Source: Naegleria gruberi (lineage: Eukaryota). Taken from it: a DNA stretch of 64,000 bases. Under the pieces are notes generated by a model. It was not told where the DNA came from. It did no database searches and was given only the letters and a program-made list of their open reading frames with translations. Below are positions 1 through 32,128 of the stretch, piece by piece. The number at the start of each line of letters is the position of its first letter. The first letter of the stretch is position 1. The DNA is taken from assembly GCA_000004985.1 (NCBI GenBank), contig GG738916.1, one strand, 5' to 3'. A program made the translations under genes and the position numbers.

Positions 1-1204
1 AATCAGTAATTTTTGAAAGTTGGGATATGTGATGCATACATCCACTTTTCATTACTACTTTTCTTAACTCTAAATAGGTTAGATTTTGGACTTTTTCACA
101 GAATTTTCGTATTACATATTCATCTATTTCAGTTCCTTGTTTTGTATTTAGAATGCATAAATATTTCAAATTAAGAAAGTTACCCTCACTCAATTCAGAG
201 AATGTATTATTGTCAACAGGACCAATTTCTAGGTGAGTGAGATTATTTTGAAGAGGTAATAAACATCTGTAAGGTAAATCTACTTCCAATTTTGATTGAA
301 AACAAAGTTTTTGGAGTGTATGAATTTTTCCAATTTGTTTCACACATTCACTATTTAAATGTGAGTGAAGAAAAGTCAATTCTCTCCATGAATTACCACT
401 ATTCAACACATTCATAATTGATTTTGTCGACATCTCCAAATCTATTGAAAAAGATTCAAGATTTGGTAAAATTGAACTATTAATTGGTGCTATGTATGAA
501 ATATTGTCTTTTTGAGATGATTCTGGAGGTCTTGCAACAAAGTTAATATGTTTCAAAGTTCTAATATTTCCTGGTTGAGTCAATATTTGATTAACACCTT
601 CATCTCCAATTCGATTACGAAGTGTAAGATGTGTTAGACGAGTCAACTTTGATTTGGTCAATACAAGTGTTGCCTTATAATCAAGTCCATTATCAATTAA
701 TGTTAGATCTGTTAAATTTAGTAAATTAGTGCATATAGTTCTTAAATTTTCAACTTCCATTTGAACACTTATTAATTTCAGTGTTGTAATTGGTGAAATA
801 TCTTTAGCAGGAATAACAATTGTAATAATATTAGTATTTTGTAATGTCAATAATTCCAGTTTTTTTGAATTGAATAACTTTTTAAAAAAAGATCTGTTAA
901 GAAAAATAGTTTCCTCAAATTCTGGAAAAGTTCTTATTTCCATTTGTGAGAATATTTGCAAGAGGTCACCTTTCATCAATCCACTCATTTCCTCCTCATC
1001 ATTTAATGATTCAAATCTGTATCTTGCTGATTTATGCTTCACATTTACACACTTGATTTCTCTAGTATCACTTTCTTTTACAATTCTTCTCCACTCGGAA
1101 CAAACTCCAGCAAAAGCAATCAAAGTATGCCAATTAAAATAGGGAATAATAACATTGCAAAATATATCTTGACTCAATTGTAATATTTTGGAATAAATCA
1201 TCAT
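1..1204 (-). CDS. F-box-like/leucine-rich-repeat protein, 5' part only (ATG at 1204, runs off the left edge); near-identical inverted copy of the gene at 30410-32128
   Basis: Reverse-complement translation from 1204 gives MMIYSKILQLSQDIFCNVIIPYFN...VCSEWRRIVKESDTR...LTHLTLRNRIGDEGVNQILTQPGNIRTLK..., matching residue-for-residue (a few substitutions) the 572-aa ORF at 30410. There are no internal stops down to position 1. An F-box-like motif is followed by LRR-like L/N-rich repeats. Confidence 0.7.
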   Translation of the reverse strand, partial: MMIYSKILQLSQDIFCNVIIPYFNWHTLIAFAGVCSEWRRIVKESDTREIKCVNVKHKSARYRFESLNDEEEMSGLMKGDLLQIFSQMEIRTFPEFEETIFLNRSFFKKLFNSKKLELLTLQNTNIITIVIPAKDISPITTLKLISVQMEVENLRTICTNLLNLTDLTLIDNGLDYKATLVLTKSKLTRLTHLTLRNRIGDEGVNQILTQPGNIRTLKHINFVARPPESSQKDNISYIAPINSSILPNLESFSIDLEMSTKSIMNVLNSGNSWRELTFLHSHLNSECVKQIGKIHTLQKLCFQSKLEVDLPYRCLLPLQNNLTHLEIGPVDNNTFSELSEGNFLNLKYLCILNTKQGTEIDEYVIRKFCEKVQNLTYLELRKVVMKSGCMHHISQLSKITD

Positions 1205-1469
1205 GTTAATACTATTATCTGTTGTTGTTGTGCTATTACTATCGGTTGTTGTGTTATTATTGATGGATTGATAGTGGGTACTTTCTCTAGAAAAACAACA
1301 GAATGATGGACAACAAGTTGTCAACATGCTCTCTTATTTTTTTTTGAACCTTAACTCCATTTTCCCCATTTTTCTTTTGATTCGGCAAAATACACAAAAA
1401 CGTACAAAAATGTAAAAAATATTACAACGATGACTTTTGAAAGAGTTTACCAAAACCGACTGTTAAAAA
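1205..1469. promoter_or_regulatory. Putative bidirectional promoter between the divergent LRR gene (-) and NHL/EGF gene (+); duplicated at 30190-30409
   Basis: A 265-bp AT-rich spacer between two divergent start codons. The same spacer sequence (aaaatggggaaaatggagttaaggttcaaaaaaa...) is conserved in the mirror copy. Confidence 0.3.
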
Positions 1470-2753
1470 ATGAAGAGAGCTCGAGATGAAATGAGAAGCG
1501 CAAACAACATTGTCCTGTTATTATTCTTGTTGATGATGATGACAATCTTTTCCACAACAACAACAGCAGCAACTACAAGTTCCACCACTAAATTATCATA
1601 TATTTCAACAATTGCAGGAAGTGGATTAATATCAGCAGCAGGTATGGAAGGAGATGGTGGTTTGGCTATCAATGCCCAATTAAATTCTCCCTCCTATTCA
1701 ATAAGTATTTCCCCTCTCAGCAATAATAATTACACTGAAACACTTATTGTCGATACACAAAATGGAAGAATTAGAAAAATATTTATGAATGGTACAATTT
1801 TCACATTACCAATTAATATGCAAACAGGTAACAAGTTTAAACCAACCATGGCTGTTTTATTTAGAAATGAATTATACATGACAGATGTGTTAAATCATAG
1901 AATTCTTTCTGTTTGCCTTTCACGTTATTTGGTGACCATTGTTTCTGGAAAGCAAAACTGTAATGAACATTCTGATTGTGATGGTTTTAGTGGTGATGGT
2001 GGTTTAGCTAGTAGAGCAAAATTAAATTCACCTAATGGTCTCTCTATTTCTCAGAATGGTGAAATTTACATTGCTGACACATTGAACCATAGAATCAGAA
2101 AGATTAATAGTTATGGAGTGATTTCAACTATTGCTGGAACTGGTAGAGCATCCTTTGGTGGTGATGGTGGATTTGCTGTTCTTTCACAATTAAACTCTCC
2201 AAATGGTGTTCATATTTCACAGAATGGTGAAATTTACATTGCTGATACATTGAACCATAGAATTAGAAAGATTAATAGTTATGGTGTGATTTCAACAGTG
2301 GCAGGAACTGGTAGAGCATCATTTGGTGGTGATGGTGGTTTGGCTATAAACTCTCAATTGAATTCACCATATGGCGTCCATGTTTCACAGAATGGTGAAA
2401 TTTACATTGCTGACACATTGAATCATCGAATTAGAAAGATATTTGTGAATGGAACTATTACAACCATTGCTGGAAGTAGTAGCGATGGATCATTTGGTGG
2501 TGATGGTGGTTTGTCAATTGCGAGTCGACTTAATTCTCCTAAAGGTGTTTTTGTTTCTCCAAATAATAATGAAATATTAATTGCAGACACATCAAATAAC
2601 AGGATTAGAAAGATCATTGAATGTGGTACAACTCTTCAATTTACACAAGATTTCAATGGAGCTATGAGTTGTGTGAATACATGCAATGGAACACGATCCA
2701 ATTCAAAATCAGTTTGTAATGGCAATGGTATCTGTAATGGTTTTAATGAATGT
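1470..2753 (+). CDS. Duplicated 5' fragment of the NHL-repeat/EGF membrane protein gene (signal peptide, NHL repeats, first EGF repeat), truncated by the gap at 2754
   Basis: The ORF MKRARDEMRSANNIVLLLFLLMMMTIFSTTTTAATT...NHRIRKI x6...CNGNGICNGFNEC runs into the N gap. It is nearly identical to 3142-4325 and to the 5' end of 23566-30189. It may be a true tandem partial duplicate or an assembly duplicate. Confidence 0.55.
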
Positions 2754-2803
2754 NNNNNNNNNNNNNNNNNNNNNNNNNNNNNNNNNNNNNNNNNNNNNNN
2801 NNN
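2754..2803. other. Assembly gap (50 N)
   Basis: Run of N. Confidence 1.
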
Positions 2804-3120
2804 CACCGAATAGTCACTGAATGTTTACCATATAATAACCGAATGGTTACTGAATATTTATTGAATAGTTACCCACCAATTTCATTCCTTTACCCAACAA
2901 TCAACCGACTACCAACCAACTAACACTGAACTAAAACGGTCAGGCGATTATGGGCTGATATTCGATTAATTTCTGGAAAATCGTTCAGTTATTTTCGGAA
3001 ACAAGTTGGGGGAAATTAGGGTTGTAGTCGGTGGTAGTAGGGTTGTGGATGGGGTTTAGACGGAACATAGCCAACTAAAAACCAACTATAACACTGTCTA
3101 TTACCCAAGTACTCCACTCT
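2804..3120. repeat. Compositionally atypical 317-bp segment at a contig end, with internal ccgaatRgtYactgaat-like direct repeats; possible repeat-element terminus or misjoin
   Basis: It is GC-richer than its surroundings (gggggaaattagggttgtagtcggtggtagtagggttgtggatggggtttagacgg) and contains repeated accgaatagtcactgaat / accgaatggttactgaat motifs. It replaces the promoter/5' sequence seen upstream of the other two copies of the same gene start, and sits immediately after a 50-N gap. Confidence 0.3.
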
Positions 3121-3141
3121 TAGGAGAGAGCTCGAGATGAA

Positions 3142-6100
3142 ATGAGAAGCGCAAACAACATTGTCCTGTTATTATTCTTGTTGTTGATGATGACACTCTT
3201 TTCCACAACAACAACAATAGGATACTTTTCGTATGTGAAAGCAACAACTGCAAGTTCCACCACTAAATTATCATATATTTCAACAATTGCAGGAAGTGGA
3301 TTAATGGCAGCATCAGGTATGGAAGGAGATGGTGGTTTGGCTATCAATGCCCAATTAAATGCTCCCTCCTATTCAATAAGTATTTCCCCTCTCAACAATA
3401 ATAATTACACTGAAACACTTATTATAGATACACAAAATGGAAGAATTAGAAAAATATTTATGAATGGTACAATTTTCACATTACCAATTAATATGCAAAC
3501 AGGTAACAAGTTTAAACCAACCGTGGCTGTTTTATTTAGAAATGAATTATACATGACAGATGTGTTAAATCATAGAATTCTTTCTGTTTCTCTGTCAAGT
3601 TATTTGGTGACCATTGTTTCTGGAAAGCAAAACTGTAATGGACATTCTGATTGTGATGGTTTTAGTGGTGATGGTGGTTTAGCTAGTAGAGCAAAATTAA
3701 ATTCACCAAATGGTCTCTCTATTTCTCAGAATGGTGAAATTTACATTGCTGACACATTGAACCATAGAATCAGAAAGATTAATAGTTATGGAGTGATTTC
3801 AACTATTGCTGGAACTGGTAGAGCATCCTTTGGTGGTGATGGTGGATTTGCTGTTCTTTCACAATTAAACTCTCCAAATGGTGTTCATATTTCACAGAAT
3901 GGTGAAATTTACATTGCTGATACATTGAACCATAGAATTAGAAAGATTAATAGTTATGGTGTGATTTCAACAGTGGCAGGAACTGGTAGAGCATCCTTTG
4001 GTGGTGATGGTGGTTTGGCTATAAACTCTCAATTGAATTCACCATATGGCGTCCATGTTTCACAGAATGGTGAAATTTACATTGCTGACACATTGAATCA
4101 TCGAATTAGAAAGATATTTGTGAATGGAACTATTACAACCATTGCTGGAAGTAGTAGCGATGGATCATTTGGTGGTGATGGTGGTTTGTCAATTGCGAGT
4201 CGACTTAATTCTCCTAAAGGTGTTTTTGTTTCTCCAAATAATAATGAAATATTAATTGCAGACACATCAAATAACAGGATTAGAAAGATCATTGAATGTG
4301 GTACAACTCTTCAATTACACAAGATNNNNNNNNNNNNNNNNNNNNNNNNNNNNNNNNNNNNNNNNNNNNNNNNNNNNNNNNNNNNNNNNNNNNNNNNNNN
4401 NNNNNNNNNNNNNNNNNNNNNNNNNNNNNNNNNNNNNNNNNNNNNNNNNNNNNNNNNNNNNNNNNNNNNNNNNNNNNNNNNNNNNNNNNNNNNNNNNNNN
4501 NNNNNNNNNNNNNNNNNNNNNNNNNNNNNNNNNNNNNNNNNNNNNNNNNNNNNNNNNNNNNNNNNNNNNNNNNNNNNNNNNNNNNNNNNNNNNNNNNNNN
4601 NNNNNNNNNNNNNNNNNNNNNNNNNNNNNNNNNNNNNNNNNNNNNNNNNNNNNNNNNNNNNNNNNNNNNNNNNNNNNNNNNNNNNNNNNNNNNNNNNNNN
4701 NNNNNNNNNNNNNNNNNNNNNNNNNNNNNNNNNNNNNNNNNNNNNNNNNNNNNNNNNNNNNNNNNNNNNNNNNNNNNNNNNNNNNNNNNNNNNNNNNNNN
4801 NNNNNNNNNNNNNNNNNNNNNNNNNNNNNNNNNNNNNNNNNNNNNNNNNNNNNNNNNNNNNNNNNNNNNNNNNNNNNNNNNNNNNNNNNNNNNNNNNNNN
4901 NNNNNNNNNNNNNNNNNNNNNNNNNNNNNNNNNNNNNNNNNNNNNNNNNNNNNNNNNNNNNNNNNNNNNNNNNNNNNNNNNNNNNNNNNNNNNNNNNNNN
5001 NNNNNNNNNNNNNNNNNNNNNNNNNNNNNNNNNNNNNNNNNNNNNNNNNNNNNNNNNNNNNNNNNNNNNNNNNNNNNNNNNNNNNNNNNNNNNNNNNNNN
5101 NNNNNNNNNNNNNNNNNNNNNNNNNNNNNNNNNNNNNNNNNNNNNNNNNNNNNNNNNNNNNNNNNNNNNNNNNNNNNNNNNNNNNNNNNNNNNNNNNNNN
5201 NNNNNNNNNNNNNNNNNNNNNNNNNNNNNNNNNNNNNNNNNNNNNNNNNNNNNNNNNNNNNNNNNNNNNNNNNNNNNNNNNNNNNNNNNNNNNNNNNNNN
5301 NNNNNNNNNNNNNNNNNNNNNNNNNNNNNNNNNNNNNNNNNGCCAATTCTGTGAAATTCCAATTTGTAATGGAACAATGGCAACTGATGCTTTGGTTTGT
5401 AATGGCAATGGTACATGTATTCAACCAGATATATGTAATTGTACTTCAGAATGGGGTGGACAGTATTGTGAAATTCCATATTGTAATGGAATATTGGCAA
5501 ATAATATATCTGCTTGTGAAGGACATGGTAACTGTATTAGCCCAAATATTTGTGAGTGTAATTCGACATATGGTGGAGAATTTTGTGAATCTCCAAAATG
5601 TAACTTTACACTGGCAACTGATCCTTATGTATGTACTGGAAATGGAGAATGTATTCAACCAGATGAATGTATTTGTAATACCAATTGGACTGGTCAATTC
5701 TGTCAAACTCCACTTTGTAATGGTACGAGTGCAACTGATGCATTGGTTTGTAATGGAAACGGTCAATGTGTGAGTCCAAATATTTGTGAATGTAATTCAA
5801 GTTGGTCAGGAGAACTTTGTGAAATTCCAATTTGTAATGGAACTTTGGCCATTGATGAATTTGTGTGTAGTGGTAATGGTGCATGTATTGGTCCAGATGT
5901 TTGTGAGTGCAATTCTACATGGGGTGGACAATATTGTGAATCTCCAAAATGTAACTCTACACTGGCAACTGATCCTTATGTATGCAATGGTAATGGAGAA
6001 TGTTTTCAACCCAATGAATGTATTTGTAATTCAAATTGGACAGGTCCATTTTGTGAAATTCCAATATGTAATGGTATTAAGGCTACCAATGATAGTAATT

Positions 6101-8006
6101 CAACTTTAACCACCAATGAAACAGTGGTGTGTAGTGGAAATGGTCTTTGCATTCGTCCAGACGAATGTTTATGTAATTCAAATTGGGCAGGTCAATATTG
6201 TGAAATTCCAATATGTGGAGATGTTTTGGCAACCAATGAAACAGCATGTAATGGCAATGGTAAATGTGTTCAACCAAATGAATGCATTTGCGACTCAAAT
6301 TGGACAGGTCAATTATGTGAAACTCCAATATGTAGTGGTATAATTTCCACTAATATATCTGTTTGTAGTAGAAAGGGTGATTGTGTTGGTGCCAATCTTT
6401 GTATCTGTTTAACTGGTTGGGGAGGTGAAGATTGTTCCACACCAATTTGTAATAATATTCTATCTACCAATGCTACTACCAATACTGATAGTAATGGAAC
6501 TATAGTTAGCAATAATACATTGGTGTGTAGTGGACATGGTGAATGTACTAGTCCAAATCAATGCAATTGTAATTTAAATTGGGGTGGTAAACAATGTGAA
6601 ATACCTAAATGTCAAGGTATTTTGGCTAATAATGAGGCAGTTTGCAACTCTAGAGGATATTGTGTCAATGAAAATCAATGTCAATGTAATGAAATGTGGG
6701 GAGGTCAATTTTGTGAAATTCCATTTTGTAATGGAACTTTAGCCACTGATTCAAATGTGTGTAATTCATTGGGAGTATGTGTTGGTCCAAATCAATGTAA
6801 ATGTCTCTCAGGTTGGGGTGGTAAACTATGTACAATACCATCATGTAATGGAATTCTTGCATTTGATGAGAATGAAGTGTGTATCGCAAAGAGTAATGCA
6901 TGTAGTGGAAATGGAAAGTGTATTGATCTTAATCGATGCAAATGTGACAAAGGTTGGACTGGACCATTATGTTCAACACCAACATGTAATGGAACATCGG
7001 CCACTGAACTAACTGTTTGTAATGGTTTTGGAGTGTGTGTTGCACCAGATACGTGTAATTGTTATAGANNNNNNNNNNNNNNNNNNNNNNNNNNNNNNNN
7101 NNNNNNNNNNNNNNNNNNGCAACACCAACATGTAATGGAATTGTTGCCACAGATCCAAACGTGTGCAATTCAAGTGGTGTTTGTGTCGATTNTGATAAGT
7201 GTGAATGTTTTTCTGGTTATGGAGATGCATTCTGTGGCACTCCAACTTGTAATGGAATTCTAGCAACTCAAATTAATGTAGAAGTAGCTGTTTGTAGTGG
7301 TCGTGGAGTGTGTTTGGGACCAAATAAGTGTGTCTGTGAACCGAATTGGGGTGGTTTCATGTGTAATATTCCAAAATGCTACGATATTGAAGGAGACAAG
7401 AAAGGTGCTTGCTTTGGAAATGGTGATTGTATAGCAGTTGACTCATGTAAATGTTATCAAGGTTATATTGGTTATGATTGTCGTACTGTTGCTCCTGATA
7501 ATAATTGTGGTGGATCAGGTTCAGGAACTACTTTTTGGGATGTTGTCTTGGAGGGTATGAAGATAATTCGTACAGTGTTATCCGGTGCAGTGTCACTAGC
7601 TAGTTCAATTAGTGATGTTATTTCATCCTTAGGAAAAGGTTTGATTGACCTTCTTGGAGGAATTGTTCCAAGCATTGCAAATATTTTCAGCTCCATTCCA
7701 AAATTAATAGAGAAAATTATTTCCTTTATTATCAGTACGGCAGAGAAGTTTATTAACTTTATTCTCGGTTTATGGACAAAGATATTAGATTTTATATCAT
7801 GGTTATTGACCTATCTTCCAAAAATATTTTCTGGAGTTACAACTCAACAAGTGGCAACAGTTTTGATTGTCATTGGTGTTGTCATACTTTTAATCATTAT
7901 TTGTGTATTGTTGTATTTACTTAGTCCATATGTTACATTGGTACTTGAATTTTTCAAAATTATTACCAGTTTTTGCTCAGCTCGTAAGAAGGCACTTAAG
8001 GAGTAG
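3142..8006 (+). CDS. NHL-repeat/EGF-like-repeat type-I membrane protein, left-arm copy, interrupted by gaps 4326-5341 and 7069-7118; paralog of 23566-30189
   Basis: It reads: signal peptide MRSANNIVLLLFLLLMMTLFSTTTT; six NHL repeats (GxGxxGxxGDGGxAxxAxLNxPxG...DTxNxRIRKI); a gap; then more than 30 EGF-like units of the form C-N-G-T-x-A-T-D-x-x-V-C-x-G-N-G-x-C-x-x-P-x-x-C-x-C-N-S-x-W-x-G-x-x-C; a gap; then a C-terminal TM helix (VATVLIVIGVVILLIIICVLLYLL) and a short tail before the stop at 8004-8006. It is in frame on both sides of each gap. It lacks two EGF units present in the right-arm copy. Confidence 0.75.
4326..5341. other. Assembly gap (1016 N). The mirror copy shows about 3 kb of coding sequence here, including the GPS-like region, so the gap size is underestimated
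   Basis: Run of N. In the intact paralog, aa ~400-1000 lie between the corresponding flanks. Confidence 0.9.
7069..7118. other. Assembly gap (50 N), coincident with the point where inter-arm identity drops
   Basis: Run of N. Confidence 1.
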
Positions 8007-8133
8007 TACAATTATAAACCATTTAGTTGTTGTTTCCAATAATCTCAAAAATATTAGATTTTTTCCCTTGGTCAACCAAAGTTTTCTTGATTAGTTTCAA
8101 AAGAAAAGAGACAATAATAAACAAATTCTCAAT

Positions 8134-23565: not shown

Positions 23566-26500
23566 CTACATGTTGTACTCCTTAAGAGCTTTTTCACTAC
23601 TTGCTAATGCACTCGAAACACCTTTGACAAATTGAAGTGCAATTGTAATATATGGACTAAGGAAAGATAACAATACTATAATAATGATCAAAAGTAGTGC
23701 AACACCAATGATTACTAAAACTGTTACCACTTGTTGAAGCGTAATTCCAGAAAATATTTTTGGAAAATAAATCACTGCCCATTCTATAAATTCAACAAAT
23801 GTTGTCCACAAATTGAGAATAAAGTTAATAAACTTCTCTGCATTGCTAATCAAAAAGTTCAGAATTTTCTCCATTAATTTTGGAATGGAGCTGAAAATAT
23901 CTGCAATGTTTGGAATAACTCCTCCAAAAAGGTCAATAAAACCAGTTCCTAAGGATTCAATAACATTACCAATTGAACTACCTATAGATGCTGCACCAGA
24001 TGCCATATCACCAATTAAATCCCAACCTTCCACAAGAACATCCCAAAAAGAGGCACCTCTACGTGAGTCACCACAATTCTTGTCAGGAACAACACTACTA
24101 CAATCATAATCCATATAACCCTGATAACATTTACATGTATCAACTGCTATACAATCACCATGTCCAGAACATACTTCTTTCTTGTCTCCTGAAATATCGA
24201 AACATTTTGGAAAGCCACACATGAAACCACCCCAATTCGGTTGACAGATACACTTATTTGGTCCCAAACACAATCCACGACCACTACACACAGCTCCTTC
24301 TACATTAATGTGAGTGGATAAAATGCTATTACAACTTAAAGTGCCACAGAATGCATCTCCATAACCAGAAAAACATTCACACTTATCAAAATCGACACAA
24401 ACACCACTTGAATTGCACACGTTTGGATCTGTGGCAACAATTCCATTACATGTTGGTGTTGCACATAATTTTCCACCCCATGAATTGCAACTACATTCAT
24501 CATTCTCAATACAAATACCCCTCGAGTTACATACTGTTGGATCTGTGGCCAAAGTTCCATTACATGTTGGAACGGTACAGAATTCACCTCCCCAATCTCT
24601 ATAACAATTACACTTATCTGGTGCAACACACACTCCAAAACCATTACAAACAGTTAGTTCAGTGGCCGATGTTCCATTACATGTTGGTGTTGAACATAAT
24701 GGTCCAGTCCAACCTTTCTCACATTTGCATCGATTAAGATCAATACACTTTCCATTTCCACTACATGCATTACTCTTTGCGATACACACTTCATTCTCAT
24801 CAAATGCAAGAATTCCATTACATGATGGTATTGTACATAGTTTACCACCCCAACCTGAGAGACATTTACATTGATTTGGACCAACACATACTCCCAATGA
24901 ATTACACACATTTGAATCAGTTGCTAAAGTTCCATTACAAAATGGAATTTCACAAAATTGACCTCCCCACATTTCATTACATTGACATTGATTTTCATTG
25001 ACACATTTTCCTCTAGAGTTGCAAACTGCCTCATTGTTAGCCAATATACCTTGACATTTAGGTATTTCACATTGTTTACCACCCCAATTTAAATTACAAT
25101 TGCATTGATTTGGACTAGTACATTCACCATGTCCACTACACACCAATGTATTATTGCTAACTATAGTTCCATTACTATCAGTATTGGTAGTAGCATTGGT
25201 AGATAGAATATTATTACAAATTGGTGTGGAACAATCTTCACCTCCCCAACCAGTTAAACAGATACAAAGATTGGCACCAATACAATCACCCTTTCTACTA
25301 CAAACAGATATATTAGTGGAAATTATACCACTACATATTGGAGTTTCACATAATTGATCTGTCCAATTTGAGTCGCAAATGCATTCATTTGGTTGAACAC
25401 ATTTACCATTGCCATTACATGCTGTTTCATTGGTTGCCAAAACATCTCCACATATTGGAATTTCACAATATTGACCTGCCCAATTTGAATTACATAAACA
25501 TTCGTCTGGACGAATGCAAAGACCATTTCCACTACACACCACTGTTTCATTGGTGGTTAAAGTTGAATTACTATCATTGGTAGCCTTAATACCATTACAT
25601 ATTGGAATTTCACAAAATGGACCTGTCCAATTTGAATTACAAATACATTCATTGGGTTGAAAACATTCTCCATTACCATTGCATACATAAGGATCAGTTG
25701 CCAGTGTAGAGTTGCATTTTGGAGATTCACAATATTGTCCACCCCATGTAGAATTGCACTCACAAACATCTGGACCAACACATGCACCATTACCACTACA
25801 CACAAATTCATAAATGGCCAAAGTTCCATTACAAATTGGAATTTCACAAAGTTCTCCTGACCAACTTGAATTACATTCACAAATATTTGGACTCACACAT
25901 TGACCGTTTCCACTACAAACCAAAACATCAGTTGCACTCGTACCATTGCAAAGTGGAGTTTGACAGAATTGACCAGTCCAATTACTATTACATAAACATT
26001 GGTCTGGATTAATACATATACCATTAGTGTTACAAACTGATTCATTTGTGGCTAAAGTTCCATTACAGATTGGAATTTCACACAAATAACCTCCCCATGT
26101 TGAATTACATTCACAGGTGTCTGGACTGACACAAATACCATTACCACTACAAACTGATAAATCTGTACCAGCTGTTCCATTACAAAGTGGAGTTTGACAG
26201 AATTGACCAGTCCAATTGGTATTACAAATACATTCATCTGGTTGAATACATTCACCATTTCCATTACATACATAAGGATCAGTTGCCAGTGTAGAGTTAC
26301 ATTTTGGAGATTCACAAAATTCTCCACCATATGTCGAATTACACTCACAAATATTTGGGCTAATACAGTTACCATGTCCTTCACAAACAGATATATTATT
26401 TGCCAATATTCCATTACAAAATGGAATTTCACAATACTGTCCACCCCATTCTGAAGTACAATTACATATATCTGGTTGAATACATGTACCATTGCCATTA

Positions 26501-29500
26501 CAAACCAAAGTATCAGTTGCCATTGTTCCATTACAAATTGGAATTTCACAAAATTGGCCTGTCCAATTGGAATTGCAAAAACATTCATCTGGATTAATAC
26601 AAATACCGTTGCTGTTGCACACTGTGTCATTGGTAGCTAACGTTCCATTACAAACTGGGACTTGACAAAATTGTCCACCCCATTCTGATGTACAAACACA
26701 TTCATCTGGTTGAATACATATTCCATTGCCATTACATACAGTTTCGTTGGTGGCTTCAGTACCATTACATATTGGAATTTCACAAAATTGACCTGTCCAA
26801 TTGTAATTGCAAAGACATTCGTCAGGTTGAATACATGCTCCATTGTTGTTACAAACAAAAGGATCAGTTGCGAGTGTAGAGTTGCATTTTGGAATTTCAC
26901 ATAAATCACCTCCCCATGTTGAATTGCAGTTACAAATATTTGGATTAATACATTCACCATTACCACTACAAACTGATAAATCTGTACCAGCTGTACCATT
27001 ACAAAGTGGTGTTTCACACAATTTACCAGTCCAATTTGTATTACAAATGCATTCATCTGGTTGAACACATTCGCCATTACCATTACAAACAGAATAGTTG
27101 TTAGCTAAAGTTCCATTACAAATTGGAATTTCACAAAATTCTCCACTATATGTCGAATTACACTGACAAAGATTTGGACCAACACATGCACCGTTACCGC
27201 TACATACAGATTCGTTAGTGGCTTCTGTTCCATTACAAATTGGAATTTCACAAAATTGCCCAGTCCAATTGGAATTACATAAACATTCATCTGGGCGAAT
27301 GCAAAGACCATTTCCACTACACGCCACTGTTTCATTGGTGGCTAATGTCGCATTGCTATCATTGGTAGCTTTAATACCTCCACAGATTGGAATTTCACAA
27401 TAAGGACCTGTCCAATTTGAATTACAAAAACATTCATCTGGCTGAATACATTCTCCATTACCATTACAAACAAAAGGATCAGTTGCATTTGTTCCATTAC
27501 ATACTGGAATTTCACAAAATTGACCAGTCCAATTCGAGTTACATTCACAAATATTTGGACTAATACATTTACCATGTCCTGCACAAACAGATGTATCATT
27601 AGCAAGAGTATCATTACATATTGGAATTTCACAAAATTCTCCACTCCAAGTTGAATTACATTCACAAACATCTGGACTAATACAAATACCATTACCACTA
27701 CATACTGTTGAGTTTGCATCCTCTAGGGTTACATTACAGAGAGGAAATTGACAAAATGGACCATAATACCCTGATTGACAATCGCAAGTGTCCAGTGAAG
27801 TACATATTCCATGAGAAGTACAAACTGTAGAATTTGTACTTTCAATTGAATTACAAGTTGTCATATTACAATAAGTTCCAAAGTATCCACTTGTACAAAC
27901 ACAATTATCACTTGAAATGCACAATCCATGAGAATTGCAAACAGTAGTTTCATTTCCTGAAATGTTAAAGCAAGTTGGAATTTCACATTGATATCCTGAA
28001 TAGCCATCATTACATACACATGTATCGTTTGCAACACATGTTCCGTTTTGATTATTACAAACCATTGAATCATTTCCCAATATTGAAAAACAAATTGGAA
28101 TTTCACAATATTGACCTGTAAATCCTGATTCACAATCACAAGTTTCTGGGCTAGTGCAATTACCAACACCATTACAAACACTTGAACTATTTGAAAGTGT
28201 ATTGTTACAAATAGAAAGCTCACAACACACTCCAGCATATCCCTGACAAATACAAGGATCATTAGTATCAATCAGAGCAAATGATGTTAAATGGGATGTT
28301 TCACAAATAACAGTACTAGAATTCACCATTTTAGTTCTTACACCATCAGATTTCCATGTATTTTCAATCCTATCCAAATACATACATGTTAAATTGGATG
28401 ATTTGGTTATGTTTTGTGAGTGTAATGGAATGATCAAAGTGATTGGCTTGTTCAATTGTTTTACAATAACTTCTTTACCACTATCACTCAGTAAAGAAAC
28501 AGAAACTATAGCACTTTTAACTTTAGGTGTTATCTTATCAATATAAATTGATGAAAATAGAATTAATGAGCTATCACTGTTCAATCCACTTGTTGAAATC
28601 AAATCACTACTCAATGTGGAAGGAAGTGAAATTTGAATACCCATATTAGTATTCGAATAACTATAAGAAACATAAATATTCTTCGAATTTAAATCACCCA
28701 ATTGATTTGCAACTTGATAATTGTAGGATGTGACATTTGTTGAAACAGCTATTGAACAATAAGATCCAATCCAACCGTAATTGCAAACACAAGTTTCTGG
28801 ACTAGTACAATTTCCAACACCATTACAAACCTTCTTACTTGTAGCAAGTGTACCATTACAAATTGGTGTTTGACAATATTGACCTCCCCAAGTTGAATTA
28901 CATTTACATTCATTAAAACCATTACAGATACCATTGCCATTACAAACTGATTTTGAATTGGATCGTGTTCCATTGCATGTATTCACACAACTCATAGCTC
29001 CATTGAAATCTTGTGTAAATTGAAGAGTTGTGCCACATTCAATGATCTTTCTAATCCTGTTATTGGATGTGTCTGCAATTAATATTTCATTATTATTTGG
29101 AGAAACAAAAACACCTTTAGGAGAATTAAGTCGACTCGCAATTGACAAACCACCATCACCACCAAATGATCCATCGCTACTACTTCCAGCAATGGTTGTA
29201 ATAGTTCCATTCACAAATATCTTTCTAATTCGATGATTCAATGTGTCAGCAATGTAAATTTCACCACTCTGTGAAACATGGACGCCATATGGTGAATTCA
29301 ATTGAGAGTTTATAGCCAAGCCACCATCACCACCAAATGATGCTCGACCAGTTCCTGCTACTGTTGTAATCAGTCCGTTAACAAATATCTTTCTAATTCT
29401 ATGGTTCAATGTATCAGCAATATAAATTTCACCATTCTGAGAAATATGAACACCATTTGGAGAGTTCAATGGTGAAAGAACAGCAAATCCACCGTCACCA

Positions 29501-30189
29501 CCAAATGATGCTCTACCAGTTCCAGCAATAGTTGAAATTACACCATAACTATTAATCTTTCTGATTCTATGGTTCAATGTGTCAGCAATGTAAATTTCAC
29601 CATTCTGAGAAATAGAGAGACCATTTGGTGAATTTAATTTTGCTCTACTAGCTAAACCACCATCACCACTAAAACCATCACAATCAGAATGTTCATTACA
29701 GTTTTGCTTTCCAGAAACAATGGTCACCAAATAACTTGACAGAGAAACGGAAAGAATTCTATGATTTAACACATCTGTCATGTATAATTCATTTCTAAAT
29801 AAAACAGCCATGGTTGGTTTAAACTTGTTACCTGTTTGCATATTAATTGGTAATGTGAAAATTGTACCATTCATAAATATTTTTCTAATTCTTCCATTTT
29901 GTGTATCGACAATAAGTGTTTCAGTGTAATTATTATTGTTGAGAGGTGAAATACTTATTGAATAGGAGGGAGAATTTAATTGGGCATTGATAGCCAAACC
30001 ACCATCTCCTTCCATACCTGCTGCTGCCATTAATCCACTTCCTGCAATTGTTGAAATATATGATAATTTAGTGGTGGAACTTGTAGTTGCTGCTGTTGTT
30101 GTTGTGGAAAAGATTGTCATCATCATCAACAAGAATAATAACAGGACAATGTTGTTTGCGCTTCTCATTTCATCCAGAGCTCTCTTCAT
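23566..30189 (-). CDS. Intact giant type-I membrane protein (2207 aa): signal peptide, 6 NHL repeats, 2 EGF, a GAIN/GPS-like region, about 45 EGF-like repeats, TM, short cytoplasmic tail
   Basis: It is a single uninterrupted ORF, MKRALDEMRSANNIVLLLFLLMMMTIFSTTTT... NHL repeat consensus GxGxxxFGGDGGxAxxSxLNSPxGVxxSxxGEIYIADTLNHRIRKI occurs six times. The GPS-like motif lies at aa 598-641. The EGF-like units have the form CNGT(L/S)ATDxxVCxGNGxCxxPDxCxCNSxWxGxxCEIP. The C-terminal TM helix is VVTVLVIIGVALLLIIIIVLLSFL, followed by ...KALKEYNM and a stop. Confidence 0.85.
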   Translation of the reverse strand: MKRALDEMRSANNIVLLLFLLMMMTIFSTTTTAATTSSTTKLSYISTIAGSGLMAAAGMEGDGGLAINAQLNSPSYSISISPLNNNNYTETLIVDTQNGRIRKIFMNGTIFTLPINMQTGNKFKPTMAVLFRNELYMTDVLNHRILSVSLSSYLVTIVSGKQNCNEHSDCDGFSGDGGLASRAKLNSPNGLSISQNGEIYIADTLNHRIRKINSYGVISTIAGTGRASFGGDGGFAVLSPLNSPNGVHISQNGEIYIADTLNHRIRKIFVNGLITTVAGTGRASFGGDGGLAINSQLNSPYGVHVSQSGEIYIADTLNHRIRKIFVNGTITTIAGSSSDGSFGGDGGLSIASRLNSPKGVFVSPNNNEILIADTSNNRIRKIIECGTTLQFTQDFNGAMSCVNTCNGTRSNSKSVCNGNGICNGFNECKCNSTWGGQYCQTPICNGTLATSKKVCNGVGNCTSPETCVCNYGWIGSYCSIAVSTNVTSYNYQVANQLGDLNSKNIYVSYSYSNTNMGIQISLPSTLSSDLISTSGLNSDSSLILFSSIYIDKITPKVKSAIVSVSLLSDSGKEVIVKQLNKPITLIIPLHSQNITKSSNLTCMYLDRIENTWKSDGVRTKMVNSSTVICETSHLTSFALIDTNDPCICQGYAGVCCELSICNNTLSNSSSVCNGVGNCTSPETCDCESGFTGQYCEIPICFSILGNDSMVCNNQNGTCVANDTCVCNDGYSGYQCEIPTCFNISGNETTVCNSHGLCISSDNCVCTSGYFGTYCNMTTCNSIESTNSTVCTSHGICTSLDTCDCQSGYYGPFCQFPLCNVTLEDANSTVCSGNGICISPDVCECNSTWSGEFCEIPICNDTLANDTSVCAGHGKCISPNICECNSNWTGQFCEIPVCNGTNATDPFVCNGNGECIQPDECFCNSNWTGPYCEIPICGGIKATNDSNATLATNETVACSGNGLCIRPDECLCNSNWTGQFCEIPICNGTEATNESVCSGNGACVGPNLCQCNSTYSGEFCEIPICNGTLANNYSVCNGNGECVQPDECICNTNWTGKLCETPLCNGTAGTDLSVCSGNGECINPNICNCNSTWGGDLCEIPKCNSTLATDPFVCNNNGACIQPDECLCNYNWTGQFCEIPICNGTEATNETVCNGNGICIQPDECVCTSEWGGQFCQVPVCNGTLATNDTVCNSNGICINPDECFCNSNWTGQFCEIPICNGTMATDTLVCNGNGTCIQPDICNCTSEWGGQYCEIPFCNGILANNISVCEGHGNCISPNICECNSTYGGEFCESPKCNSTLATDPYVCNGNGECIQPDECICNTNWTGQFCQTPLCNGTAGTDLSVCSGNGICVSPDTCECNSTWGGYLCEIPICNGTLATNESVCNTNGICINPDQCLCNSNWTGQFCQTPLCNGTSATDVLVCSGNGQCVSPNICECNSSWSGELCEIPICNGTLAIYEFVCSGNGACVGPDVCECNSTWGGQYCESPKCNSTLATDPYVCNGNGECFQPNECICNSNWTGPFCEIPICNGIKATNDSNSTLTTNETVVCSGNGLCIRPDECLCNSNWAGQYCEIPICGDVLATNETACNGNGKCVQPNECICDSNWTDQLCETPICSGIISTNISVCSRKGDCIGANLCICLTGWGGEDCSTPICNNILSTNATTNTDSNGTIVSNNTLVCSGHGECTSPNQCNCNLNWGGKQCEIPKCQGILANNEAVCNSRGKCVNENQCQCNEMWGGQFCEIPFCNGTLATDSNVCNSLGVCVGPNQCKCLSGWGGKLCTIPSCNGILAFDENEVCIAKSNACSGNGKCIDLNRCKCEKGWTGPLCSTPTCNGTSATELTVCNGFGVCVAPDKCNCYRDWGGEFCTVPTCNGTLATDPTVCNSRGICIENDECSCNSWGGKLCATPTCNGIVATDPNVCNSSGVCVDFDKCECFSGYGDAFCGTLSCNSILSTHINVEGAVCSGRGLCLGPNKCICQPNWGGFMCGFPKCFDISGDKKEVCSGHGDCIAVDTCKCYQGYMDYDCSSVVPDKNCGDSRRGASFWDVLVEGWDLIGDMASGAASIGSSIGNVIESLGTGFIDLFGGVIPNIADIFSSIPKLMEKILNFLISNAEKFINFILNLWTTFVEFIEWAVIYFPKIFSGITLQQVVTVLVIIGVALLLIIIIVLLSFLSPYITIALQFVKGVSSALASSEKALKEYNM
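24150..28260 (-). repeat. Tandem array of about 45 EGF-like Cys-rich coding repeats (~93-100 nt each) within gene 23566-30189
   Basis: A periodic C-x-G-x-x-C...C-x-C-x-x-x-W-x-G-x-x-C pattern repeats. The opposite strand yields many spurious His/Val-rich ORFs. Confidence 0.8.
28267..28308 (-). other. GPS (GPCR-proteolysis-site)-like motif VICETSHLTSFALID at aa 628-641 of the 2207-aa protein; putative autoproteolytic site HL|T
   Basis: The sequence tctagtactgttatttgtgaaacatcccatttaacatcatttgctctgattgat translates to SSTVICETSHLTSFALID. The upstream context LTCMYLDRIENTWKSDGVRTKMVNSSTV resembles the canonical GPS layout Cys ... Trp-x-x-x-Gly ... Cys-x-x-x-HL(S/T)xFA. Confidence 0.5.
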
Positions 30190-30409
30190 TTTTTAACAGT
30201 CGGTTTTGGTAAACTCTTTCAAAAGTCATCGTTGTAATATTTTTTACATTTTTGTACGTTTTTGTGTATTTTGCCGAATCAAAAGAAAAATGGGGAAAAT
30301 GGAGTTAAGGTTCAAAAAAAATAAGAGAGCATGTTGACAACTTGTTGTCCATCATTCTGTTGTTTTTCTAGAGAAAGTACCCACTATCAATCCATCGATA
30401 ATAACACAA
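30190..30409. promoter_or_regulatory. Putative bidirectional promoter between the divergent NHL/EGF gene (-) and LRR gene (+); mirror of 1205-1469
   Basis: A short AT-rich divergent spacer conserved between the two arms. Confidence 0.3.
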
Positions 30410-32128
30410 TTGCCGATGAAATATTCTAAAATATTGCAAGTGAGTCAAGATATATTTTGCAATGTAATTATTCCCTATTTTAATTCACATACTTTGATTG
30501 CTTTTGCTGGAGTTTGTTCCGAGTGGAGAAGAATTGTCAAAGAAAGTGATACTAGAGGAATCAAGTGTGTAAATGTAAAACATAAATCAGCAAGATACAG
30601 ATTTGAATCATTAAATGATGAGGAGGAAATGAGTGGATTAATGAAAGGTGACCTCTTGCAAATATTCTCACAAATGGAAATAAGAACTTTTCCAGAATTT
30701 GAGGAAACTATTTTTCTTAACAGATCTTTTTTTAAAAAGTTATTCAATTCAAAAAAATTGGAATTATTGACATTACAAAATACTAATATTATTACAATTA
30801 TTATTCCTGCTAAAGATATTTCACCAATTACAACACTGAAATTAATAAGTGTTCAAATGGAAGTTGAGAATTTAAGAACTATATGCACTAATTTACTAAA
30901 TTTAACAGATCTAACATTAATTGATAATGGACTTGATTATAAGGCAACACTTGTATTGACCAAATCAAAGTTGACTCGTCTAACACATCTTACACTTCGT
31001 AATCGAATTGGAGATGAAGGTGTTAATCAAATATTGACTCAACCAGGAAATATTAGAACTTTGAAATATATTAACTTTGTTGCAATACCTCCAGAATCAT
31101 CTCAAAAAGACAATATTTCATACATAGCACCAATTAATAGTTCAATTTTACCAAATCTTGAATATTTTTCAATAGATTTGGAGATGTCGACAAAATCAAT
31201 TATGAATGTGTTGAATAGTGGTAATTCATGGAGAGAATTGACCTTTCTTCACTCACATTTAAATAGTGAATGTGTGAAACAAATTGGAAAAATTCATACA
31301 CTCCAAAAACTTTGTTTTCAATCAAAATTGGAAGTAGATTTACCTTACAGATGTTTATTACCTCTTCAAAATAATCTCACTCATCTAGAAATTGGTCCTG
31401 TTGATAATAATACATTCTCTGAATTGAGTGAGGGTAACTTTCTTAATTTGAAATATTTATGCATTCTAAATACAAAACAAGGAAATGAAATAGATGAATA
31501 TGTAATACGAAAATTCTGTGAAAAAGTTCAAAATCTAACCTATTTAGAGTTAAGAAAAGTAGTAATGAAAAGTGGATGTATGAATCACATATCCCAACTT
31601 TCAAAAATAACTGATTTACGAATTATTCAAACACATATTGATAGTGAAGGAATGAAATATTTATCAAGAATGAGTAACATGACAACATTATATTTAGGAA
31701 GTGAAATTACATTTGATGGTATTTCATATTTATGCAAGGGAAATTTACTAAATTTACACACTTTAAAGTTTACAAGAGTTCCTTCAGGCAAGTTCAAATA
31801 TGACTCAAAGTTTACATCAAGTTTAGCTCATTCAAATTTTCCAAAATTAAGATATTTGAGTTTTTATTATGAATTTGATATTTATGCAACTGATATGTTA
31901 CATTCTGGACCATCTCTGAAAAATTTGATACATTTAGAACTTTATTGGGTAGATTTAACAATTACACCTATTTTAGTACCTATAGTCAATAATCTGGCAC
32001 CTAAATATCTGACTGGAATTGGAGGTTTTGCAGCCCTTAAAGCAAAAGTCATATCACAATTAAGACAACCAACAAAAATCAACTATTTGATTGCATATAC
32101 AGATATACGAATTGATGAATTTATTTAA
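30410..32128 (+). CDS. F-box-like/leucine-rich-repeat protein (572 aa), intact copy
   Basis: ORF from ATG to TAA, MPMKYSKILQVSQDIFCNVIIPYFNSHTLIAFAGVCSEWRRIV... followed by LRR-like repeats. It is duplicated in inverted orientation at 1-1204. Confidence 0.8.
   Translation: MPMKYSKILQVSQDIFCNVIIPYFNSHTLIAFAGVCSEWRRIVKESDTRGIKCVNVKHKSARYRFESLNDEEEMSGLMKGDLLQIFSQMEIRTFPEFEETIFLNRSFFKKLFNSKKLELLTLQNTNIITIIIPAKDISPITTLKLISVQMEVENLRTICTNLLNLTDLTLIDNGLDYKATLVLTKSKLTRLTHLTLRNRIGDEGVNQILTQPGNIRTLKYINFVAIPPESSQKDNISYIAPINSSILPNLEYFSIDLEMSTKSIMNVLNSGNSWRELTFLHSHLNSECVKQIGKIHTLQKLCFQSKLEVDLPYRCLLPLQNNLTHLEIGPVDNNTFSELSEGNFLNLKYLCILNTKQGNEIDEYVIRKFCEKVQNLTYLELRKVVMKSGCMNHISQLSKITDLRIIQTHIDSEGMKYLSRMSNMTTLYLGSEITFDGISYLCKGNLLNLHTLKFTRVPSGKFKYDSKFTSSLAHSNFPKLRYLSFYYEFDIYATDMLHSGPSLKNLIHLELYWVDLTITPILVPIVNNLAPKYLTGIGGFAALKAKVISQLRQPTKINYLIAYTDIRIDEFI

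What the first reader, a model, noticed from the sequence alone, without database searches (positions are those of the whole stretch)
1..32128. Mirror-image segmental duplication of a gene pair, with an identity step inside a gene
Two arms of at least 8 kb (1-8006 and 23566-32128) are reverse complements. Each arm carries an F-box-like/LRR gene, a ~220-265-bp divergent spacer and a giant NHL/EGF membrane protein gene. Identity is about 98-99% from the LRR gene through most of the EGF array, then drops to about 75% aa over the last ~0.9 kb (the membrane-proximal EGF units, TM and tail). The step falls at 7069-7118 (left) and ~24400 (right). This fits recent gene conversion or duplication with a breakpoint inside the gene, leaving older, diverged 3' ends. 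The alternative is collapse or duplication of allelic haplotypes in a draft assembly. The left arm also has an extra 5' gene fragment (1470-2753) and two fewer EGF units.
Basis: seen in the sequence. Interest (0 to 1): 0.6.

Follow-up and report, generated by a model that had tools for sequence, protein, structure and literature searches.

The report
Inverted gene-pair duplication in Naegleria draft
Two mirror-image copies of a surface-protein/LRR gene pair in a gapped draft scaffold of the amoeba Naegleria gruberi are about 98% identical up to a sharp point inside the big gene and about 80% beyond it, which is most likely an ordinary gene-conversion boundary in a multi-copy family, with part of the left copy looking like an assembly artefact.

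Summary
The window is part of a 245-kb Naegleria gruberi NEG-M draft scaffold. The inverted repeat is real in the assembly. It covers left 1-8088 (weakly to about 8200) and right 23508-31616, and continues to 32128 by protein evidence. The high-identity part is 98.1% identical (88 substitutions in 4561 nt), spacer included. The left arm has one 234-nt deletion, exactly two 117-nt EGF units.

7069-7118 is a run of 50 N. The step lies at left 7241|7242 and right 24340|24339, in register, at an EGF-unit junction, 123 nt inside the next contig. Beyond it identity is about 80% nt and 65% aa (dS 0.27, dN/dS 0.84, against dS 0.02-0.08 before).

The "extra 5' fragment" is a redundant neighbouring contig across a 50-N gap, probably a split haplotype or an unresolved extra copy.

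The arms themselves do not look like haplotigs: they are inverted, 15 kb apart, and have unrelated inner flanks. At least four near-identical LRR copies exist, and they share variants in a reticulate pattern.

Best reading: an old inverted duplication, later homogenised by gene conversion. This is an ordinary kind of event, of modest interest.

The parts
1..1201 (-). Left LRR gene, first 400 codons. It is NAEGRDRAFT_74682 (P0006, 570 aa) and runs about 511 nt off the window start.
   Evidence: The translation is identical to P0006 residues 1-400. It is 97.8% nt identical to 31616-30415. Pfam LRR_14 scores below its cut-off.
1202..1469 (.). Left head-to-head spacer (268 nt).
   Evidence: 1249-1469 aligns to 30409-30190 within the 97.6% block. 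A roughly 41-nt indel lies next to the LRR start.
1470..2753 (+). Contig A copy of the giant gene's 5' end (428 open codons, NHL repeats). It ends at a gap.
   Evidence: Pfam NHL and TEN_NHL. 97.6% identical to the right arm. dS 0.076.
2754..2803 (.). Assembly gap (50 N) between the redundant contigs A and B.
2804..3124 (.). Sequence upstream of the contig B gene start, found nowhere else in the window.
   Evidence: It matches only itself in the window.
3125..4325 (+). Contig B copy of the same giant-gene 5' end (ATG at 3142, open to the gap). It is redundant with A 1474-2651.
   Evidence: A vs B is 96.3% identical, with 19 mismatches and 25 gap columns. A equals B over A 2117-2651 (one difference), but they differ by 19 substitutions and a 24-nt indel over 1474-2033.
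4326..5341 (.). Assembly gap (1016 N). The matching right-arm interval, 29007-26559, is 2449 nt and holds the GPS region and the first EGF units.
5342..7068 (+). Contig C, an EGF array (open frame from 5344). It is two EGF units (234 nt) shorter than the right arm, at 5718/5719.
   Evidence: Global alignment gives 22 mismatches in 1727 nt and one 234-nt gap. Pfam EGF families.
7069..7118 (.). Assembly gap (50 N). The matching right-arm interval, 24597-24463, is 135 nt.
7119..7241 (+). The last 123 nt of the high-identity segment, at the start of contig D.
   Evidence: No substitutions against 24462-24340. One N at 7192.
7242..8006 (+). Diverged 3' end of the left giant gene: the last two EGF units, stalk, TM and short tail, up to the stop codon.
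   Evidence: About 80% nt and 65% aa identity to 24339-23566. dS 0.27, dN/dS 0.84. TM predicted.
8007..8200 (.). Weak residual 3'-flank homology, marking the inner end of the old duplication.
   Evidence: 8030-8088 vs 23565-23508 is 88% identical. 8151-8200 vs 23439-23393 is 82%.
23393..23565 (.). Right-arm counterpart of the weak 3'-flank homology.
23566..24339 (-). Diverged 3' end of the right giant gene (codons 1951-2207 plus the stop).
24340..30189 (-). High-identity body of the right giant gene (codons 1-1950): signal-like segment, NHL repeats, 2 EGF units, a GPS motif and 33 further EGF units. It lies in one uninterrupted 33-kb contig.
   Evidence: Intact 2207-aa ORF. Pfam. No N between 10643 and 43609.
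30190..30415 (.). Right head-to-head spacer (226 nt).
30416..32128 (+). Right LRR gene (570 aa). The annotated model P0007, NAEGRDRAFT_74692, is an N-terminally truncated version of it.
   Evidence: P0007 equals the last 499 aa of this ORF. It is 97.5% aa identical to P0006.
8134..10045 (-). X1, a gene or pseudogene in two ORFs (8134-8841 is NAEGRDRAFT_81884). It is the unique inner flank of the left arm and a roughly 50% aa paralogue of X2.
11582..18206 (.). A third, much older head-to-head pair of the same design: X2 at 11582-13711(-) and an NHL/EGF gene at 13765-18206(+), the latter split into three ORFs.
   Evidence: Pfam. 36-40% aa identity to the right giant protein.

Best explanation
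The two arms are paralogous loci in the N. gruberi genome. A module of at least 8.7 kb was duplicated in inverted orientation long ago. The module is an LRR gene, a spacer and a giant NHL-GPS-EGF type I membrane protein gene; synonymous divergence of the surviving old part is about 0.27.

Later, homologous recombination without crossover (interlocus gene conversion, or an equivalent homology-guided re-copying) overwrote one arm with the other. The overwritten stretch runs from beyond the LRR gene, through the spacer, to the junction between EGF units 35 and 36. The tract ended at left 7241|7242 and right 24340|24339. The last two EGF units, stalk, TM and tail therefore kept their old, fast-evolving sequence.

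The same recombination activity acts at smaller scale. Two 117-nt EGF units were lost or gained by unequal exchange. A 28-nt patch was copied between neighbouring NHL blades. Variants are shuffled among at least four LRR copies.

Near-identity of the arms, probably together with heterozygosity, broke the Sanger assembly of the left arm into four contigs. One contig break lies about 170 nt before the fork. The 'extra 5' fragment' is a redundant contig (a split haplotype or an unresolved further copy), not a proven tandem fragment.

Shown: the identities, the in-register junction inside a contig, homogenised silent and intergenic sites, the mosaic variant patterns and the gaps.
Inferred: that both arms exist in vivo as placed, the direction and timing of conversion, and the nature of contigs A and B.
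For: - The junction is sharp and in register. 123 nt of identity are followed at once by about 20% divergence, at homologous positions and at an EGF-unit boundary, inside contig D. An 82%-identical old paralogue would show 123 identical nt by chance with probability about 0.82^123.
- Homogenisation is at the DNA level, not from selection on the protein. The spacer is 98% identical. dS is 0.066 (LRR), 0.076 (NHL) and 0.018 (EGF), against 0.27 in the tail.
- The arms are inverted and 15.3 kb apart, and their inner flanks are unrelated. X1 on the left is instead a paralogue of X2. The right arm lies in a 33-kb gap-free contig with unique flanks.
- Variant sharing is reticulate. All three possible bipartitions occur among the four reference LRR copies. 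An independent Logan contig shares 14 sites with the right arm and 12 with the left, interleaved. In the A/B/R comparison the relationship switches at about 2100.
- Twelve clustered substitutions at 2273-2300 match the neighbouring NHL blade 168 nt upstream.
- There is an exact two-unit (234-nt) indel in the 117-nt-period array.
Against: - The left arm is joined only by scaffolding across three gaps. Two of these are placeholder-sized at 50 N.
- The start of contig D carries an N at 7192, which suggests thin coverage over the junction.
- The source strain is a heterozygous diploid (PMC9081340; PMC9928731). Some of the 2% divergence among copies could therefore be allelic.
- The LRR copies fall into two pairs, each about 2.4% apart in aa (L/R and P0001/P0008). 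This is what two loci with two alleles each would give.
- No reads, depth data or independent NEG-M assembly could be reached.
Confidence: 0.6

Rival explanations
1. The left arm is a scaffolding artefact. Contigs A, B and C are alternative haplotypes of the right arm, or pieces of other family copies elsewhere (near P0001 or P0008). They were wrongly threaded in front of contig D, which is the true 3' end of an older paralogue. On this view the 'step' is a join between unrelated contigs.
For: - The left arm consists of small contigs separated by N runs, and all its anomalies sit at gaps.
- A and B are redundant.
- The strain is a heterozygous diploid.
- The LRR copies form two pairs, each about 2.4% apart in aa.
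- The false-duplication signature is described in PMC2864568.
Against: - The step is 123 nt inside contig D, not at the gap, and it is in register.
- Haplotigs are normally placed in the same orientation at the same place (PMC2864568). These arms are inverted and 15 kb apart.
- A, C and D (and B, apart from its redundancy with A) lie in the order and orientation of one complete gene, and each piece keeps an open frame.
- No 80%-identical gene body that could belong to contig D is present in the window.
Confidence: 0.2
2. Tail swap rather than body homogenisation. The two arms are a recent duplication of about 2% divergence throughout. One copy later had its last 0.85 kb replaced by ectopic conversion from a third, more distant family member.
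For: The family has more members: P0001, P0008 and the middle pair. Conversion is evidently active. This reading gives the same sharp in-register junction.
Against: - The weak homology continues about 200 nt past the stop codons and then ends in both arms. That fits an old duplication boundary shared by both tails.
- No other tail of this type was found in 5.8 billion proteins or in the window.
- The point is untestable without the other copies' giant genes.
Confidence: 0.12
3. No recombination is involved. It is a uniform old duplication in which strong purifying selection keeps the gene bodies alike and relaxed or diversifying selection lets the tails drift.
For: The tail has dN/dS 0.84, against 0.17-0.5 in the body.
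Against: Synonymous divergence itself drops from 0.27 to 0.02-0.08. The non-coding spacer is 98% identical. The transition happens within a single nucleotide position.
Confidence: 0.02
4. The two arms are the two alleles of one locus, duplicated by the assembler.
For: About 2% divergence in a heterozygous diploid.
Against: The orientation is inverted. The inner flanks are unrelated, and 15.3 kb of unique genes lie between the arms. The tails differ by 20% with different 3' neighbours.
Confidence: 0.05

Closest known systems
Inverted segmental duplications (palindromes) kept alike by arm-to-arm gene conversion, such as the ampliconic palindromes of the human Y chromosome. This comparison rests on my own knowledge and was not checked in a paper here.
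   Same: Two inverted arms carry genes and are separated by a unique spacer. Coding and non-coding sequence are near-identical. The edge of the homogenised region is sharp.
   Different: - The arms are only about 98% identical rather than above 99.9%.
- The homogenised tract ends inside a gene, leaving an older duplicated remainder.
- The arms belong to a family with further copies.
- The evidence comes from a gapped draft scaffold, not from finished sequence.
False segmental duplications caused by split haplotypes in whole-genome shotgun assemblies (Kelley and Salzberg 2010, PMC2864568).
   Same: Contigs A and B are neighbours in the same orientation across a gap. They are more than 96% identical and come from a heterozygous diploid.
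   Different: The main left and right arms are inverted, 15 kb apart and have different flanks. B also carries 321 nt with no counterpart in A.
Concerted evolution by gene conversion and unequal exchange in multigene families that encode repeat-rich surface proteins (general knowledge).
   Same: Variant sharing among copies is mosaic. Repeat arrays show whole-unit indels. Short conversion patches occur between internal repeats.
   Different: No function, expression or population data exist for this family. The diverged part is the membrane-proximal end rather than the distal ectodomain.
Teneurins and GPS-motif adhesion proteins (domain-level resemblance of the giant protein only).
   Same: Pfam TEN_NHL, EGF_TEN and EGF_Teneurin hits, and a GPS motif above its cut-off.
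   Different: The predicted topology is type I, with N-terminal NHL repeats and 37 EGF-like units. No YD or Rhs shell is detected. There is a single TM about 1500 aa away from the GPS motif. Teneurins are type II proteins (PMC3278476).

Membership tests
Inverted segmental duplication homogenised by gene conversion | Two arms in inverted orientation on one molecule | tested here: met
   This holds only at scaffold level, because the left arm spans three N gaps.
Inverted segmental duplication homogenised by gene conversion | High identity at silent and non-coding sites, not only at the protein level | tested here: met
   The spacer is about 98% identical. dS is 0.018-0.076 in the body against 0.27 in the tail.
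Inverted segmental duplication homogenised by gene conversion | Sharp, in-register boundary between homogenised and old sequence | tested here: met
   7241|7242 corresponds to 24340|24339, inside contig D.
Inverted segmental duplication homogenised by gene conversion | Both arms physically present in the genome (read depth, spanning reads) | not testable with these tools
   No reads or independent NEG-M assembly could be reached.
False duplication from haplotype splitting (Kelley and Salzberg) | The source is a heterozygous diploid | tested here: met
   Literature only: PMC9081340 and PMC9928731.
False duplication from haplotype splitting (Kelley and Salzberg) | Duplicate contigs placed adjacent, in the same orientation, next to a gap, at 96% identity or more | tested here: met
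   Met for contigs A and B (criteria).
False duplication from haplotype splitting (Kelley and Salzberg) | The same signature for the main left and right arms | tested here: not met
   The arms are inverted, 15.3 kb apart and have unrelated inner flanks.
False duplication from haplotype splitting (Kelley and Salzberg) | Mate pairs and read depth consistent with a single locus | not testable with these tools
   Read and mate-pair data are not available here.
Teneurin | Type II topology with an N-terminal intracellular domain | tested here: not met
   There is a hydrophobic segment at aa 14-32 and a single TM at aa 2154-2172, which gives type I topology. The definition comes from PMC3278476.
Teneurin | YD/Rhs shell and toxin-like C-terminus | tested here: not met
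   Pfam finds only EGF and NHL families and a GPS motif.
Adhesion-GPCR/polycystin-type GAIN-GPS proteins | GPS motif | tested here: met
   PF01825 scores 29.3 bits against a cut-off of 22.5, E 1.2e-6.
Adhesion-GPCR/polycystin-type GAIN-GPS proteins | GPS immediately before a multi-pass membrane domain | tested here: not met
   The single TM is about 1500 aa downstream, with 35 EGF units in between.
F-box/LRR protein (the partner gene) | F-box domain | tested here: inconclusive
   F-box-like scores 13.9 bits against a cut-off of 24.3. The N. lovaniensis homologue scores 17.6 bits.
F-box/LRR protein (the partner gene) | Leucine-rich repeats | tested here: inconclusive
   LRR_14 scores 31.5-33.2 bits, E 1e-7 to 3e-8, below the curated cut-off of 40.

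The most novel reading that the evidence does not exclude
The head-to-head LRR / NHL-GPS-EGF pairs may be a recombining cell-surface recognition locus of Naegleria (self/non-self or mating-partner recognition). This would be loosely analogous to polymorphic head-to-head receptor/ligand pairs in other amoebae. Gene conversion would shuffle the ectodomains among at least four copies, while the membrane-proximal EGF units, TM and tail diversify (dN/dS about 0.84). Under this reading the identity step marks a functional module boundary rather than an accidental tract end. The remnant NHL-TM gene head-to-head with the LRR homologue in N. lovaniensis would then indicate that the pairing is old.
Probability: 0.06. 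Interest if true: 0.6.

Novelty: new member of a known kind. Interest (0 to 1): 0.25.

Why it matters
If both arms are real, this locus is a clean small example of interlocus gene conversion with a nucleotide-sharp tract end inside a gene, in a heterolobosean. It would show that large repeat-rich surface-protein genes of Naegleria evolve in concert.

The practical value is greater. The left arm is unreliable draft sequence, with a redundant gene start and three gaps. The giant genes appear to be missing from the public proteome. Gene counts and family analyses based on this assembly will therefore be wrong here. The structure also predicts a possible inversion polymorphism of the 15-kb segment between the arms.

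Tried and rejected
1. I tried to fetch the rest of the 245-kb scaffold and the 9.7-kb scaffold that carries the fourth LRR copy. The look-up of encoding contigs has no record for the N. gruberi models P0001, P0006, P0008, P0004 or P0005. The outer end of the left arm, the third copy's neighbour and any haplotig could therefore not be examined.

2. A protein search with the left tail found only a weak EGF hit. Neither tail appears in any annotated or metagenomic protein, so there is no independent check of the junction and no other tails for a phylogeny.

3. A protein search with the first 700 aa of the right giant protein was swamped by bacterial NHL-repeat proteins. It showed no near-identical N. 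gruberi model, so it gave no copy number.

4. Only one independent contig was obtained: Logan ERR1078381, L001. It matches neither arm exactly (98.6% to the right arm, 97.7% to the left) and is mosaic. Its strain is unknown. A mosaic could also come from a de Bruijn-graph path through several copies, so I treat it as weak evidence.

5. The Fritz-Laylin 2010 genome paper is not held. Statements on NEG-M diploidy and heterozygosity rest on later papers that cite it.

6. I rejected selection alone as the cause of the step, because dS and spacer identity argue against it.

7. I rejected an allelic relation between the arms, because of the unrelated inner flanks and the inverted orientation.

8. 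I rejected teneurin membership.

9. I checked whether the inner flanks extend the old duplication. They do not. X1 matches X2, not the right-arm flank.

Full report
**Source and state of the sequence**

The LRR ORF of the right arm finds only Naegleria proteins. Two small ORFs of the window (8137-8841 and 22180-23265) are exact matches to the N. gruberi models NAEGRDRAFT_81884 and NAEGRDRAFT_74690, both on a 245,038-bp scaffold. The window is therefore part of the NEG-M draft assembly.

It contains seven runs of N:
- 2754-2803 (50 N)
- 4326-5341 (1016 N)
- 7069-7118 (50 N)
- 7192 (1 N)
- 10148-10642 (495 N)
- 43610-62699 (19,090 N)
- 62759 (1 N)

The left arm is thus four contigs: A 1-2753, B 2804-4325, C 5342-7068 and D 7119-10147. 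The right arm lies inside a gap-free 33-kb contig (10643-43609).

**Checking the observation**

The inverted repeat is real:
- 1-1202 vs 31616-30415: 97.8%
- 1249-2753 vs 30409-28906: 97.6%
- 5342-7068 vs 26558-24598: 22 mismatches in 1727 aligned nt, plus a single 234-nt gap in the left arm at 5718/5719
- 7119-8088 vs 24462-23508: 82.3%

Summed over the high-identity part there are 88 substitutions in 4561 nt, or 98.1% identity.

The left LRR translation equals P0006 residues 1-400, and P0006 is 570 aa long. The left arm therefore continues about 511 nt beyond the window start. The right arm correspondingly reaches at least the LRR stop at 32128.

The EGF array has a 39-aa (117-nt) period, with 37 CxC units in the right protein.

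**The step**

A residue-by-residue alignment shows that 7119-7241 is identical to 24462-24340, apart from the N at 7192. Divergence begins abruptly at 7242/24339.

After that point identity is about 80% nt and 65% aa. Over the last 295 aa it is 69.5%.

In the protein the switch falls after codon 1950 of 2207. This is the junction between EGF units 35 and 36 (...CECFSGYGDAFCGT | PTCNG... against ...| LSCNS...). The diverged part therefore comprises the last two EGF units, a roughly 110-aa stalk, the single TM (aa 2154-2172) and a short tail.

Weak similarity continues about 200 nt beyond the stop codons and then ends.

So the step exists. It is also in register. A random chimeric clone, or a mis-join of unrelated contigs, would not produce that.

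**Nature of the difference across the step**

Nei-Gojobori estimates:

| Segment | dS | dN/dS |
|---|---|---|
| LRR | 0.066 | 0.17 |
| NHL, contig A | 0.076 | 0.20 |
| EGF, contig C | 0.018 | 0.52 |
| First 123 nt of D | 0 | n/a |
| Tail | 0.27 | 0.84 |

The non-coding spacer is as similar as the genes. The step is therefore a change in the age of the DNA, not a change in protein constraint. That excludes the selection-only explanation.

**The 'extra 5' fragment'**

Contig A ends inside the NHL region, at 2753. After 50 N, contig B starts with 321 nt that occur nowhere else in the window. B then repeats the gene from just before its ATG (3125-4325 vs A 1474-2651 and vs right 30185-29008).

A three-way comparison shows the following:
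- A and B are practically identical over A 2117-2651 (one difference), where both differ from the right arm at 24 sites.
- Over 1474-2033 A and B differ from each other at 19 sites plus a 24-nt in-frame indel. Neither is closer to the right arm there.

So two alternative left-hand continuations are attached to the same sequence, and they are placed in series, in the same orientation, across a placeholder-sized gap. This is the signature of the duplicated contained or overlapping contigs described for heterozygous shotgun assemblies (PMC2864568). NEG/NEG-M is described as a diploid that arose from a mating (PMC9081340), and Naegleria as mainly a heterozygous diploid (PMC9928731).

I therefore regard the tandem fragment as probably not a real tandem feature. 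It is either a split haplotype or an unresolved further copy. The B-specific upstream sequence leaves a real partial duplication possible.

**Are the arms themselves an artefact?**

The haplotig signature does not fit them. They are inverted and 15.3 kb apart. Their inner flanks are unrelated. Left 8134-10045 (X1) is instead a roughly 50% aa paralogue of 11582-13711 (X2), and nothing there resembles 20279-23268.

Contigs A, C and D follow the order and orientation of one complete gene, and every piece, B included, keeps an open frame. The break between C and D lies about 170 nt before the point where two nearly identical sequences fork. An overlap assembler is expected to break in such a place.

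Against this, the left arm is held together only by scaffolding, and the N at 7192 suggests thin coverage. The LRR copies also fall into two pairs, each about 2.4% apart in aa: L/R, and P0001/P0008, the latter on a 9.7-kb scaffold. That is the pattern two loci with two alleles each would give.

I could not reach reads, the rest of the scaffold or an independent NEG-M assembly. This remains the main uncertainty.

**Evidence for recombination among copies**

- There are at least four LRR copies more than 94% identical in the reference proteome. Three are on this scaffold: P0001 upstream of the window, P0006 (left) and P0007 (right).
- Their variable residues support all three possible bipartitions of four sequences. 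Examples are columns 247/285/328 (L,R | P0001,P0008), columns 170/489 (L,P0008 | R,P0001) and column 482 (L,P0001 | R,P0008).
- An independent Logan contig shares 14 variant sites with the right arm and 12 with the left, interleaved. A graph-assembly mosaic cannot be excluded for that contig.
- The twelve substitutions clustered at 2273-2300 make the left copies resemble the neighbouring NHL blade 168 nt upstream: 5 mismatches in 36, against 13-15 for the right-arm version. This is a short intragenic conversion patch.

Together with the whole-unit indel, these findings show that homologous exchange is common in this family.

**Most likely mechanism**

1. An old inverted duplication copied the LRR/giant-gene module. 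Its inner end lies about 200 nt 3' of the giant gene.
2. One or more non-crossover homologous repair events then copied one arm onto the other, from beyond the LRR gene to the junction of EGF units 35 and 36.
3. The conserved inter-unit junction sequence of the array is a plausible place for a tract to end.

I cannot distinguish this from replacement of one tail by a third family member without the other giant-gene copies. I give the real-paralogue, conversion-boundary reading about 0.6, a left-arm scaffolding artefact about 0.2, and the tail swap about 0.12.

**What the genes are**

The giant protein has the following parts, in order:
- an N-terminal hydrophobic segment
- NHL repeats
- two EGF units
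- a domain with a Pfam GPS motif above threshold (aa ~601-639, ...VICETSHLTSFALID...)
- 35 further EGF units
- a stalk, one TM and a short tail

It hits the teneurin-named Pfam models for NHL and EGF. It is not a teneurin, because it has type I topology and no YD shell.

The partner protein is LRR-like below Pfam cut-offs and has only a faint F-box-like signal.

The head-to-head design recurs in the window: X2 with the NHL/EGF gene at 13765-18206. In N. lovaniensis, short NHL-repeat ORFs ending in a TM lie head-to-head with the LRR homologue. N. fowleri shows no such neighbour.

**Verdict**

Its alternative fits the extra fragment better than it fits the arms. The phenomenon is a familiar one: a segmental duplication with a conversion boundary, in a recombining multigene family, seen through a fragmented draft. 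Interest is modest.

Noticed in passing
window 28273-28389 (-), aa ~601-639 of the right giant protein: A GPS (GPCR proteolysis site) motif scores above the Pfam cut-off: PF01825, 29.3 bits, E 1.2e-6, sequence ...VICETSHLTSFALID.... It lies between the NHL head and the EGF array, about 1500 aa from the only TM. This is an unusual position for a GPS motif, and it occurs in a heterolobosean.
   Followed up: partly
L002 (N. lovaniensis PYSW02000018.1) 9164-10048 (-), next to 10001-11842 (+): Short NHL-repeat ORFs ending in a TM segment lie head-to-head with the LRR homologue P0002. The LRR/NHL-TM pairing may therefore predate N. gruberi. The N. fowleri locus L003 shows no NHL neighbour.
   Followed up: partly
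window 8134-10045 (-) and 11582-13711 (-): X1 (two ORFs; 8134-8841 is NAEGRDRAFT_81884) is a roughly 50% aa paralogue, in tandem orientation, of the 709-aa ORF X2. Neither has any Pfam hit. X1 may be a split or decaying copy.
   Followed up: partly
window 13765-18206 (+): This is a third NHL/EGF gene, split into three ORFs (13765-14379, 14506-16689, 16935-18206), either by introns or by frameshifts. It is 36-40% identical to the giant protein, has DUF7949 hits and contains internal repeats of 82-92% identity at 16472-17674.
   Followed up: no
window 23566-30189 (-) and 1470-8006 (+): Neither the N-terminal 700 aa nor the C-terminal tail of the giant proteins finds a near-identical N. gruberi entry among 5.8 billion proteins. 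The exact 2207-aa product is also absent. The giant genes therefore seem to be unmodelled or badly modelled in the public annotation.
   Followed up: partly
window 2273-2300 (also 3948-3975 in contig B): Twelve substitutions relative to the right arm fall within 28 nt. The left version matches the adjacent NHL blade 168 nt upstream, which indicates a short intragenic conversion patch.
   Followed up: yes
window 2804-3124: This 321-nt stretch upstream of the contig B gene start has no counterpart elsewhere in the window. It contains repeated ACCGAATRGTYACTGAATRTTTA-like motifs. Its origin is unknown; it could be a repeat element or the promoter of another copy.
   Followed up: no
window 43610-62699: This is a 19,090-N scaffold gap. 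Only about 43.3 kb of the 64-kb window is real sequence. The very long 'ORFs' listed there are artefacts of the N run.
   Followed up: yes
window 20279-22039 (-): A separate F-box/LRR gene (F-box 31.9 bits and F-box-like 32.4 bits, both above their cut-offs) sits between the arms. It is only distantly related to the paired LRR genes.
   Followed up: no
L001 (Logan ERR1078381 contig, 1807 nt): This is a fifth LRR variant (P0009), 98.6% identical to the right arm and 97.7% to the left. Its variants are shared with both arms in an interleaved pattern, and 8 sites are private. The strain or sample is unknown, and no paper mentions the run.
   Followed up: partly
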